Assembly: GCF_013315695.1 (NCBI RefSeq)
Contig: NZ_CP054353.1
From: Escherichia coli
Lineage (GTDB): Bacteria > Pseudomonadota > Gammaproteobacteria > Enterobacterales > Enterobacteriaceae
DNA length: 64,000 nucleotides
Reading direction: 5' to 3' (one strand)
The position numbers were made by a program. Shown here piece by piece: positions 16,477-18,050 of this stretch. Numbering within the stretch: position 1 is the first letter of the stretch; the number at the start of each line of letters is the position of its first letter.

Positions 16477-18050
16477 TTACTCCAGAATGCAGCGCAAGGC
16501 GAGGAGTATCCCCGTCTCATCTCTCTGGTTTCAGGGTTACGGTGCGTTGGCAGGATTTAACGCGTACGTCTTTTCTGAAGGAAATCGACAAAGCGGGAAG
16601 TTTGCCTGGAACTGGCGGCGATTGTCAATGATGTGAAAAAGGGAACCATCGGGTTCCCTTTTGCGTTAGTGCCGGAGGCCGCATTGGCGCGCAACGTCGG
16701 ATGCGGCGCTGGCGCGTCTTATCCGACCTACTCCGAATTAATCTTTCAGCTTGCGCATTACCAGCGTGGCGTTAGTGCCGCCGAAGCCGAAGCTGTTAGA
16801 CATAACGGTGGTCAGTTCGCGATCGGTCGTTTCGGTCACGATGTTCAGACCCGCAGCCTGCTCGTCCAGCTCTTCAATGTTGATGCTCGGGGCGATAAAA
16901 CCGTGTTCCAGCATCAGCAGAGAGTAGATAGCTTCCTGTACGCCAGCAGCGCCCAGTGAGTGACCGGTCATTGCTTTGGTTGCAGAAATCGCCGGGCTCT
17001 TATCGCCGAACACTTCACGGATAGCTGCCAGTTCTTTCACGTCGCCAACCGGAGTCGAAGTACCATGAGAGTTCAGGTAGTCGATTGGGGTATCAACACC
17101 GTGCATCGCCATCTTCATGCAGCGCACTGCACCTTCGCCAGACGGAGCAACCATGTCTGCGCCATCAGAGGTTGCGCCGTAGCCAACGATTTCAGCATAG
17201 ATGTGAGCACCACGCGCCAGCGCGTGTTCCAGCTCTTCAACCACTACCATACCGCCACCGCCAGCGATAACGAAACCGTCACGGTGAGCGTCGTAAGTAC
17301 GGGAGGCTTTTTCCGGGGTGTCGTTGTATTTAGTAGACAGCGCACCCATCGCGTCGAATTCGCAAGCCATTTCCCAGCACAGCTCTTCGCCGCCGCCAGC
17401 AAACACGATGTCCTGTTTGCCCAGTTGGATCTGCTCTACTGCGTTACCGATACAGTGTGCGGAAGTCGCACACGCGGAGCTGATGGAGTAGTTAACGCCG
17501 TGAATTTTAAACGGCGTGGCGAGGCAGGCAGAAACGCCGGATGCCATCGCTTTGGTGACCACATACGGGCCAACCGCTTTCAGGCCGCGCGGGCCGCGCA
17601 TTGCGTCAGCGCCGAAAACCTGGAAACGCGGGGAGCCGCCGCCGGAACCTGCAATCAGGCCAACGCGCGGGTTATTCTGGTAAGCTTCCGGGGAGAGGCC
17701 AGCATCTGCAATTGCCTGCTCCATAGAAAGGAATGCATAAATGGATGCGTCGCTCATAAAGCGCACAACTTTGCGGTCAATGAGGCCAGTGGTATCCAGT
17801 TTTACGTTGCCCCAGACGTGGCTACGCATGCCGGAATCCTTCAGCTCCTGAGAGAAAGTGATCCCTGAACGTCCTTCACGCAGAGATGCCAGGACTTCCT
17901 GCTGGTTATTACCGATGCTGGAAACAATGCCCAGGCCAGTAATCACTGCACGTTTCATTCAATACCTCTGTAAGTCGCACATAGAGTAAGTTTCGCATGC
18001 ACAATAGCGTACACTTGTACGCCGAACAAGTCCGATCAGCCAATTAATAG

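What the first reader, a model, noticed from the sequence alone, without database searches (positions are those of the whole stretch)
18006..18037. Near-perfect 18-bp palindrome in the fabB-mnmC divergent promoter region
AGCGTACA-CT-TGTACGCC lies about 50 bp upstream of fabB, next to a FadR-like half-site. It is the kind of site expected for FabR or FadR control of fabB, and because it sits in the short gap before mnmC it could influence both genes.
Basis: partly seen in the sequence, partly recalled or inferred. Interest (0 to 1): 0.2.

Follow-up and report, generated by a model that had tools for sequence, protein, structure and literature searches.

The report
Known FabR operator in fabB promoter
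The palindrome is the already characterised binding site of the FabR repressor inside the E. coli fabB promoter, directly beside the FadR activator site; this switch balances unsaturated against saturated membrane fatty acids, so the finding is correct but ordinary.

Summary
The 18-mer AGCGTACACTTGTACGCC is at window 18006-18023, 47 nt from the fabB start codon, with perfect 7-nt arms and a 2-nt spacer. The window is an E. coli chromosome. Palindromy alone is not beyond chance (7 such repeats in the window, 4.7 expected). The site's meaning comes from three other results. First, it is letter-for-letter the published "FabR palindrome" of the E. coli fabB promoter, and the adjacent 17 nt (18024-18040) are the published FadR box. 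Second, across 79 of 80 Enterobacterales fabB loci the palindrome and FadR box carry 1.6-1.8 bits per column, against about 0.37 in the flanks. Both half-sites tolerate the same single substitution. Third, with the published transcription start (37 bp before the ATG) the palindrome spans about -28 to -11. That fills the 17-nt spacer between -35 (TTGTTC) and -10 (TATTGT), a position from which a bound repressor would block RNA polymerase. The FadR "half-site" is a full site. I found no support for an effect on mnmC. The operators sit at fixed positions in the fabB core promoter, and a variable-length linker separates them from a candidate mnmC promoter. Verdict: real, already known, low interest.

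The parts
18006..18023 (-). FabR operator: 18-bp imperfect palindrome (fabB strand GGCGTACAAGTGTACGCT; + strand AGCGTACACTTGTACGCC). About -28 to -11 relative to the fabB TSS.
   Evidence: Sequence. Identical to the 'predicted FabR palindrome' marked in the E. coli fabB EMSA probe (PMC4537474). Mean 1.79 bits/column across 79 unique orthologous sequences.
18007..18013 (.). Left perfect arm GCGTACA
   Evidence: the repeat finder pair I2, 100% complementary, 2 nt between the arms.
18016..18022 (.). Right perfect arm TGTACGC
   Evidence: the repeat finder pair I2.
18024..18040 (-). FadR activator box (fabB strand GCTGATCGGACTTGTTC), abutting the FabR palindrome with no gap; about -45 to -29.
   Evidence: Lies in the fabB probes whose FadR sites are marked in PMC4259882 and PMC4537474; wild-type FadR shifts the fabB probe and the W60G mutant does not. 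Mean 1.64 bits/column; the exact 17-mer occurs in 56 of 79 loci.
18024..18029 (-). fabB -35 hexamer TTGTTC (inside the FadR box)
   Evidence: My reading of the sequence: 17-nt spacing to the -10. Near-invariant across genera. The fabA promoter has the same TTGTTC. Inference.
18001..18006 (-). fabB -10 hexamer TATTGT; its first T is the last base of the 18-mer
   Evidence: Conservation pattern T-A-n-n-n-T across genera (TATTGT/TAAAGT/TAGAGT/TATCTT). It lies 6 nt upstream of the published TSS. Inference supported by the TSS.
17995..17995 (-). fabB transcription start (+/-1 nt)
   Evidence: [quoted passage not shown] The window has no indels relative to MG1655 here.
16738..17958 (-). fabB CDS (beta-ketoacyl-ACP synthase I), the regulated gene
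   Evidence: ORF list; RefSeq annotation of the 100% identical strain MSB1_4I.
18056..18070 (-). Published CpxR box of fabB (K-12 GTAAGgctgcGCAAA; here GTCAGgctgcGCAAA). Part of the same promoter region but not of the palindrome.
   Evidence: PMC7083825 Table 1: -112 to -98 from the ATG, DNase I footprint -119 to -94. SNP at 18068 relative to MG1655.
18053..18085 (+). Candidate mnmC promoter: A-tract plus -35 TTGCGC (18057-18062), 17-nt spacer, -10 TAAGAT (18080-18085). Prediction only.
   Evidence: Conserved blocks in the 78-sequence gapped alignment and in representative genera, at constant distance from the mnmC start codon. The consensus promoter scanner did not call it.
18117..20123 (+). 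mnmC CDS (GTG start), the divergent neighbour
   Evidence: RefSeq annotation. Divergent neighbour of fabB in 77 of 80 loci.

Best explanation
The palindrome is the operator of FabR, a TetR-family repressor, in the sigma-70 promoter of fabB. It fills the 17-nt spacer between the -35 (TTGTTC) and the -10 (TATTGT) and overlaps the first base of the -10. A bound FabR dimer, one subunit per GCGTACA half-site, would therefore keep RNA polymerase off the promoter. Immediately upstream and overlapping the -35 is the FadR box, from which FadR activates fabB; long-chain acyl-CoA releases FadR. According to the literature, unsaturated acyl thioesters enhance FabR binding and oleate promotes repression. 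Together the two adjacent sites set fabB expression, and so the unsaturated:saturated ratio of membrane lipids. Shown here: sequence identity to the published operator, geometry relative to the published TSS, deep conservation, and symmetric half-site variation. Taken from the literature: protein binding, ligand effects, derepression in fabR mutants. Inferred: the steric-occlusion mechanism and the -35/-10 assignment.
For: Identity: the reverse complement of 18006-18023 equals the 'predicted FabR palindrome' GGCGTACAAGTGTACGCT in the E. coli fabB probe, and the FadR box is adjacent (PMC4537474; PMC4259882). Organism: E. coli, 100% identical to strain MSB1_4I, with fabB and mnmC annotated. The three SNPs relative to MG1655 in the gap all lie outside both operators. 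Geometry: the TSS is 37 bp upstream of the ATG (PMC7083825), which puts the palindrome at about -28 to -11. PMC3462791 states that E. coli FabR binds overlapping the -10 and FadR overlapping the -40 region, said there of fabA. Conservation: the 18-mer is found with at most 4 mismatches in 79 of 80 Enterobacterales fabB loci, at 1.79 bits/column against 0.36-0.38 in the flanks. Both arms vary only at the same half-site position (G/T), as expected for a symmetric dimer. Regulon: the same motif and the same FadR-box/-35 layout occur at K-12 fabA, and a degenerate copy lies upstream of trhA/yqfA. Regulator: fabR is present in 5424 of 5426 complete E. coli genomes. FabR matches the NCBIfam FabR equivalog (413.9 bits), and its only solved homologue is DesT. 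In vivo, from the literature: a FabR ChIP peak on the fabB-STM2379 intergenic region and fabB up 3.1-fold in Salmonella delta-fabR; fabB-GFP is upregulated in E. coli delta-fabR and oleate promotes FabR repression (PMC9017321).
Against: Nothing contradicts it. Limits: palindromy alone is not statistically unusual. The consensus promoter scan called no promoter here because the hexamers are weak, 3/6 and 4/6, so the -35/-10 assignment rests on spacing, conservation and the published TSS. The primary binding papers (McCue 2001; Zhang 2002, not attempted; Zhu 2009; Feng & Cronan 2009 and 2011; Campbell & Cronan 2001) were not readable here, so binding evidence is second-hand through papers that cite them. 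No binding experiment exists for this particular strain, although its operator sequences are identical to K-12.
Confidence: 0.95

Rival explanations
1. Bidirectional operator: FabR and/or FadR bound here also regulate the divergent mnmC gene. For example, FadR centred about 60 bp upstream of a predicted mnmC TSS could act as a class I-type activator, coupling tRNA wobble modification to lipid status. This would be in addition to the fabB role, not instead of it.
For: The divergent fabB-mnmC arrangement is kept in 77 of 80 loci with a gap of 151-197 bp. The palindrome-to-mnmC distance falls into two tight classes, 92-95 and 102-105 nt, about one helical turn apart. The Salmonella ChIP-chip authors list the peak as 'IR fabB-STM2379', with both genes as possible targets.
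Against: The operators are fixed to the fabB -35/-10, while a variable linker (12 to more than 40 nt) separates them from the candidate mnmC promoter. The two distance classes follow taxonomy and may reflect a single indel event. Morganella and Moellerella break the phasing. L065 and L072 lack mnmC beside fabB yet keep the palindrome. Rosenbergiella keeps the mnmC-side block but has lost the FadR box. STM2379 is absent from the Salmonella delta-fabR supplementary expression table. No literature link was found. The mnmC TSS is only predicted.
Confidence: 0.07
2. The conservation reflects only core-promoter constraints on fabB (the -35/-10 and spacer), and the palindrome is not itself a protein-binding site.
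For: The palindrome lies exactly between the -35 and the -10 and shares one base with the -10.
Against: Sigma-70 spacers are not normally conserved in sequence (established knowledge), yet 13 of 18 columns are effectively invariant across many genera. The variation is dyad-symmetric. The same motif recurs at fabA and trhA/yqfA, which have different -10 sequences. ChIP and mutant data show FabR acting here.
Confidence: 0.02
3. Chance palindrome, or a DNA/RNA hairpin (terminator or attenuator-like element) with no operator role.
For: Palindromes of this size occur at roughly chance frequency in the window.
Against: The terminator scan found nothing and there is no T-run. Rfam gave no hit at E<=1. 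The site lies upstream of the fabB TSS, so it is not in the fabB mRNA. A 2-nt spacer is too short for a hairpin loop. Deep conservation excludes chance.
Confidence: 0.01

Closest known systems
FabR operator of the E. coli K-12 fabB promoter (predicted by McCue et al. 2001; FabR/YijC assigned by Zhang, Marrakchi & Rock 2002; studied further by Zhu et al. 2009 and Feng & Cronan 2011, all as cited)
   Same: The 18-mer, the adjacent FadR box, the -35, the -10 and all spacing are identical.
   Different: Only three strain SNPs, all outside the operators: 17996, 18043 and 18068.
FabR/FadR operator pair of the E. coli fabA promoter
   Same: Same layout: FadR box ending in TTGTTC, then an 18-bp FabR palindrome abutting it, then the -10 (AACTGATCGGACTTGTTC-AGCGTACACGTGTTAGCT-ATCCT).
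   Different: The fabA palindrome is less symmetric (right arm TGTTAGCT) and has a different central dinucleotide. It lies 38 rather than 47 nt from the ATG. fabA has additional promoters.
FabR box of trhA/yqfA
   Same: Shares the core GC..ACA-NN-TGT...CT. Mutating three nucleotides of the box abolishes FabR and oleate control (PMC9017321; sequence).
   Different: More degenerate (AGCTAACAGGTGTTCACT), and no adjacent FadR box was seen.
DesT (P. aeruginosa FabR homologue) and its palindromic operators; DesT structures 3LSJ/3LSP/3LSR
   Same: A TetR-family repressor homologous to FabR (E=6.9e-30) that binds a palindrome upstream of fabA.
   Different: Different organism and promoter architecture: the DesT site lies upstream of a putative activator element, and its effect on fabAB is modest.

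Membership tests
FabR operator (FabR regulon: fabA, fabB, trhA/yqfA) | 18-bp imperfect palindrome matching the published FabR site (RGCKTACA-NN-TGTAMGCT type) | tested here: met
   Exact identity to the FabR palindrome marked in the published E. coli fabB probe. It is the only zero-mismatch hit to GCKTACANNTGTAMGC in the 64-kb window.
FabR operator (FabR regulon: fabA, fabB, trhA/yqfA) | Located in the promoter of an unsaturated-fatty-acid gene and overlapping the core promoter (repressor position) | tested here: met
   47 nt upstream of the fabB ATG. With the published TSS it spans about -28 to -11, between the -35 and -10 and overlapping the -10.
FabR operator (FabR regulon: fabA, fabB, trhA/yqfA) | Phylogenetic footprint: conserved upstream of orthologous fabB genes (the way the site was first discovered) | tested here: met
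   Found in 79 of 80 loci; 1.79 bits/column against about 0.37 in the flanks; dyad-symmetric variation.
FabR operator (FabR regulon: fabA, fabB, trhA/yqfA) | Cognate regulator gene fabR present in the genome | tested here: met
   fabR DNA is found in 5424 of 5426 complete E. coli genomes. The protein matches the NCBIfam FabR equivalog at 413.9 bits. This is a species-level test; fabR is outside the window.
FabR operator (FabR regulon: fabA, fabB, trhA/yqfA) | Physical binding by FabR, and derepression of fabB in a fabR mutant | not testable with these tools
   Literature only: a ChIP-chip/ChIP-qPCR peak on the fabB promoter and fabB up 3.1-fold in Salmonella delta-fabR; fabB-GFP up in E. coli delta-fabR. 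The primary EMSA papers were not readable.
FadR operator (activating class, fabA/fabB type) | 17-bp FadR box matching the published fabB site, located at about -40 and overlapping the -35 | tested here: met
   GCTGATCGGACTTGTTC at 18024-18040 lies in the fabB probes whose FadR sites are marked. It spans about -45 to -29 relative to the TSS. [quoted passage not shown]
FadR operator (activating class, fabA/fabB type) | Binding by FadR that is released by long-chain acyl-CoA | not testable with these tools
   Literature: wild-type FadR shifts the fabB probe and the W60G mutant does not; fabB-lacZ is 2-2.5-fold lower in the fadR mutant.
Intrinsic terminator or structured RNA element | GC-rich hairpin followed by a T-run, or a match to an RNA family, within a transcript | tested here: not met
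   No terminator-like site. No Rfam match at E<=1. The site lies upstream of the fabB TSS.

The most novel reading that the evidence does not exclude
The compact, deeply conserved divergent fabB-mnmC control region is a shared regulatory unit. FadR (centred about 60 or about 70 bp upstream of the predicted mnmC start, depending on the lineage), FabR, or CpxR (whose published footprint overlaps the predicted mnmC -35) would also modulate mnmC. That would link tRNA wobble-uridine modification to membrane-lipid or envelope status.
Probability: 0.07. Interest if true: 0.45.

Novelty: already known. Interest (0 to 1): 0.07.

Why it matters
The FabR/FadR operator pair at fabB is a well-characterised control point for membrane lipid homeostasis in E. 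coli. Re-finding it from raw sequence shows that the first-stage reader can recognise genuine operators, but it adds no new biology. The conservation analysis gives a modest refinement. It shows which operator positions are invariant across Enterobacterales (G1 C2 T4 A5 C6 A7 | T10 G11 T12 A13 G15 C16 T17) and that both half-sites tolerate only the same G/T change. It also shows that the intergenic region consists of a fabB module and a separate candidate mnmC promoter module joined by a variable linker. The only open question with some interest is whether mnmC shares any of this regulation.

Tried and rejected
(1) Palindromy as evidence in itself: rejected, because counts in the window match chance. 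(2) The consensus promoter/terminator scan of 17900-18200 returned nothing. The fabB hexamers are too weak for its threshold, so I used the published TSS and conservation instead. (3) The primary papers (McCue 2001, Zhu 2009, Feng & Cronan 2011 and 2009, Campbell & Cronan 2001) are not in the held library. I relied on open papers that reproduce the probe sequences and cite them. Two paper searches failed on term syntax. (4) The second, overlapping inverted repeat ACTTGTACG/CGAACAAGT (18013-18031) is kept at 8 of 9 or better in only 35 of 79 loci. It is a by-product of similar FadR and FabR half-sites, not a selected feature. (5) The only other pattern hit in the window (62512, 2 mismatches) is not a FabR site: it lacks the invariant G1 and C16 of the fabB sites. 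It lies upstream of frc/yfdW, where EvgA-bound inverted repeats are reported. (6) RNA element: none found. (7) FabR autoregulation: no FabR-like site within 5 mismatches in the sthA-fabR gap of K-12. (8) Regulation of mnmC by FabR or FadR: literature searches were empty, and STM2379 is absent from the Salmonella delta-fabR supplementary table.

Full report
OBSERVATION. The window is an E. coli chromosome. The region 17850-18250 is 100% identical to strain MSB1_4I and is present in 5425 of 5426 complete E. coli genomes. RefSeq annotation gives fabB at 16738-17958 on the minus strand and mnmC at 18117-20123 on the plus strand with a GTG start, leaving a 158-bp divergent intergenic gap. The reported 18-mer AGCGTACACTTGTACGCC is at 18006-18023. 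Its perfect arms GCGTACA and TGTACGC are separated by 2 nt, and only the outermost pair of the 8+2+8 form is mismatched. It ends 47 nt from the fabB ATG.

IS IT MORE THAN CHANCE? Not by symmetry. The 64-kb window contains 7 perfect 7+2+7 inverted repeats against 4.65 +/- 2.0 in Markov-1 simulations. It contains 32 8+2+8 repeats with at most one mismatch against 28 +/- 5. Significance has to come from elsewhere, and it does.

IDENTITY WITH A PUBLISHED OPERATOR. Table 2 of PMC4537474 gives the E. coli fabB gel-shift probe as TCTATTAAATGGCTGATCGGACTTGTTC*GGCGTACAAGTGTACGCT*ATTGTGCATTC. The starred stretch is labelled the predicted FabR palindrome, and the FadR site is marked just upstream. The same probe appears in PMC4259882, where wild-type FadR shifts it and the W60G mutant does not. 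The starred 18-mer is the exact reverse complement of window 18006-18023. The FadR box GCTGATCGGACTTGTTC is the reverse complement of 18024-18040. An alignment with MG1655 shows three SNPs in the gap (17996, 18043, 18068) and none in either operator.

GEOMETRY. [quoted passage not shown] That is window 17995, +/-1 nt. On the fabB strand the sequence reads TTGTTC (18029-18024), then the 17-nt spacer GGCGTACAAGTGTACGC, then TATTGT (18006-18001), then 5 nt, then the start. The palindrome therefore spans about -28 to -11. It fills the -35/-10 spacer and shares its last base with the -10. The FadR box spans about -45 to -29 and contains the -35. This matches the statement that E. coli FabR binds overlapping the -10 and FadR overlapping the -40 region, made for fabA in PMC3462791. 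The consensus scanner called no promoter because the hexamers match only 3/6 and 4/6. The assignment rests on the TSS, the 17-nt spacing and conservation.

PHYLOGENETIC FOOTPRINT. A scan of one genome per species with FabB returned 80 fabB loci across Enterobacterales, from Escherichia to Morganella, Yersinia and Edwardsiella, plus one Alkalimonas MAG. The 18-mer is found with at most 4 mismatches, 40-96 nt (median 47) upstream of the ATG, in 79 of the 80. It is missing only in the reduced endosymbiont Candidatus Gullanella. Anchored on the site, information content averages 1.79 bits/column in the palindrome and 1.64 in the FadR box. It averages 1.30 in the following 7 nt (the rest of the -10 region), against 0.36-0.38 in the flanks. 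The -10 shows the classic T-A-n-n-n-T pattern (TATTGT, TAAAGT, TAGAGT, TATCTT). Within the palindrome, the invariant or near-invariant columns are G1 C2 T4 A5 C6 A7 and T10 G11 T12 A13 G15 C16 T17. The variable columns are the central dinucleotide, position 0, and the dyad-related positions 3 and 14. Expressed as half-sites, both arms vary at one and the same position (GCGTACA or GCTTACA) and essentially nowhere else. This is the expected signature of a symmetric dimer reading two equivalent half-sites, not of a promoter spacer. The right arm's outermost base is fixed because it doubles as the first T of the -10. This explains why the E. coli palindrome is 'near-perfect' rather than perfect.

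REGULON AND REGULATOR. In K-12, fabA carries the same arrangement: AACTGATCGGACTTGTTC-AGCGTACACGTGTTAGCT-ATCCT, 38 nt from the ATG. trhA/yqfA carries a degenerate copy, AGCTAACAGGTGTTCACT. This agrees with the ACAnnTGTnnnnT core proposed from Salmonella ChIP targets. The K-12 fabA probe is present at 99% identity or better in 5384 of 5425 matching E. coli records. fabR itself is present in 5424 of 5426 genomes. Its product matches the NCBIfam FabR equivalog at 413.9 bits, with weaker hits to TetR-type regulators. Its only solved homologue is P. aeruginosa DesT (3LSJ/3LSP/3LSR, E=6.9e-30). In-vivo evidence from the literature includes a FabR ChIP-chip peak on the fabB-STM2379 intergenic region and a 3.1-fold rise of fabB in Salmonella delta-fabR. 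In E. coli delta-fabR the reporters are upregulated, oleate promotes FabR repression, and a 3-nt change in the trhA FabR box abolishes control. FabR binding is enhanced by unsaturated thioesters, though not strictly dependent on them.

MECHANISM. Shown here or in the literature: FabR binds this palindrome and represses fabB, and FadR binds the abutting box and activates. Inferred from the geometry: repression works by occlusion of RNA polymerase, because the operator occupies the -35/-10 spacer and the first base of the -10. Also inferred: FadR acts from a position overlapping the -35, like a class II activator. Ligand logic, from the literature: acyl-CoA removes FadR, and unsaturated acyl thioesters or oleate favour FabR repression. 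Exogenous or excess unsaturated fatty acid thus lowers fabB by both routes. A third, CpxR-dependent input has been footprinted further upstream, at -119 to -94 from the ATG.

DOES IT ALSO ACT ON mnmC? The divergent arrangement is conserved in 77 of 80 loci, with a gap of 151-197 bp. The gapped alignment reveals a second conserved module on the mnmC side: AAATTTGC(GC) at 18053-18062 and TAAGAT at 18080-18085, 17 nt apart. Its conservation is typical of a -35 (TTGC) and a -10 (T1, A2, T6), and it sits at constant distance from the mnmC start codon. This is a prediction; no mnmC TSS was available. Between the FadR box and this module lies a poorly conserved linker. It is 12 nt in Escherichia, Salmonella, Klebsiella and Pantoea, about 22 nt in Serratia, Yersinia, Pectobacterium, Hafnia, Edwardsiella and Rahnella, and longer in Morganella and Moellerella. 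So the FabR/FadR operators belong structurally to the fabB module. Their register with the fabB -35/-10 never changes, while their distance to the candidate mnmC promoter does. Two loci without mnmC beside fabB (L065, L072) keep the palindrome. STM2379 is not in the Salmonella delta-fabR supplementary expression table, although the ChIP authors formally listed both genes as possible targets. No paper in the searchable library links mnmC with FadR or FabR. The roughly one-helical-turn difference between the two main linker classes is compatible with phase-dependent action. However, it follows taxonomy, may be a single event, and is broken in other genera. I rate dual control at about 7%.

ALTERNATIVES REJECTED. 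Terminator or RNA structure is rejected: there is no T-run and no terminator call, no Rfam match, and the site is upstream of the TSS. Pure promoter-spacer constraint is contradicted by the dyad-symmetric conservation and by recurrence of the motif at fabA and trhA, which have different -10 sequences. The overlapping second inverted repeat (18013-18031) is preserved in only 35 of 79 loci, so it is incidental.

VERDICT. It is already known: the FabR operator of the fabB promoter with its adjacent FadR box. Interest is low.

Noticed in passing
window 18053-18085 (+): Conserved blocks AAATTTGC(GC) and TAAGAT, 17 nt apart and at constant distance from the mnmC GTG across genera. This is a candidate mnmC sigma-70 promoter with a predicted start near 18092. 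The consensus scanner did not call it, and I found no published TSS.
   Followed up: partly
window 18056-18070, SNP at 18068: The published, footprinted CpxR box of fabB (K-12 GTAAGgctgcGCAAA) reads GTCAGgctgcGCAAA in this strain, a change in one half-site. The GCAAA half coincides with the strongly conserved TTTGC that I read as the mnmC -35. The GTAAG half is poorly conserved across Enterobacterales. CpxR bound here would overlap the predicted mnmC promoter.
   Followed up: partly
loci L002-L081, linker corresponding to window 18041-18052: The distance from the palindrome to the mnmC start codon falls into two tight classes: 92-95 nt (55 loci) and 102-105 nt (19 loci). They differ by about one helical turn because of an indel in the linker between the FadR box and the mnmC-side module. 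The split follows taxonomy, so it may be a single event.
   Followed up: partly
L044, L055 (Rosenbergiella), L072 (Ca. Schmidhempelia), L081 (Alkalimonas MAG), L075 (Ca. Gullanella): The FadR box upstream of fabB is lost while the FabR palindrome is kept in Rosenbergiella, Schmidhempelia and Alkalimonas. Both are absent in the reduced endosymbiont Gullanella. The two operators are therefore evolutionarily separable. I did not check whether fadR or fabR genes are missing in those genomes.
   Followed up: no
window 62511-62528: Perfect 8+2+8 palindrome TTCTTACAACTGTAAGAA in the yfdX-frc intergenic region, about 250 bp upstream of frc/yfdW. It was the only other weak hit to the FabR-like pattern. 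It fits the EvgA-bound inverted repeats reported upstream of yfdX and yfdWUVE (PMC3720670 citing Masuda & Church 2003). The match to the EvgA consensus itself is from memory.
   Followed up: partly
window 17996: SNP relative to MG1655 (C here, A in K-12 on the + strand) immediately next to the published fabB transcription start. About 3358 of 5425 E. coli genomes are at least 99% identical to this window over 17996-18045, and the rest differ by about 1 nt.
   Followed up: no
window 27545-27562 and 53003-53020: Two other perfect 8+2+8 palindromes, CGGGGCCAGATGGCCCCG and TAAAAATGACCATTTTTA, turned up in the chance-expectation count. I did not examine them.
   Followed up: no
L083 (MG1655 fabA region) 2472-2560: The fabA-ycbZ gap is only 68 bp, so the FadR box of the fabA promoter runs into the 3' end of the upstream ycbZ CDS. 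The fabA 56-mer probe also matched 4 places on plasmids among E. coli records.
   Followed up: no
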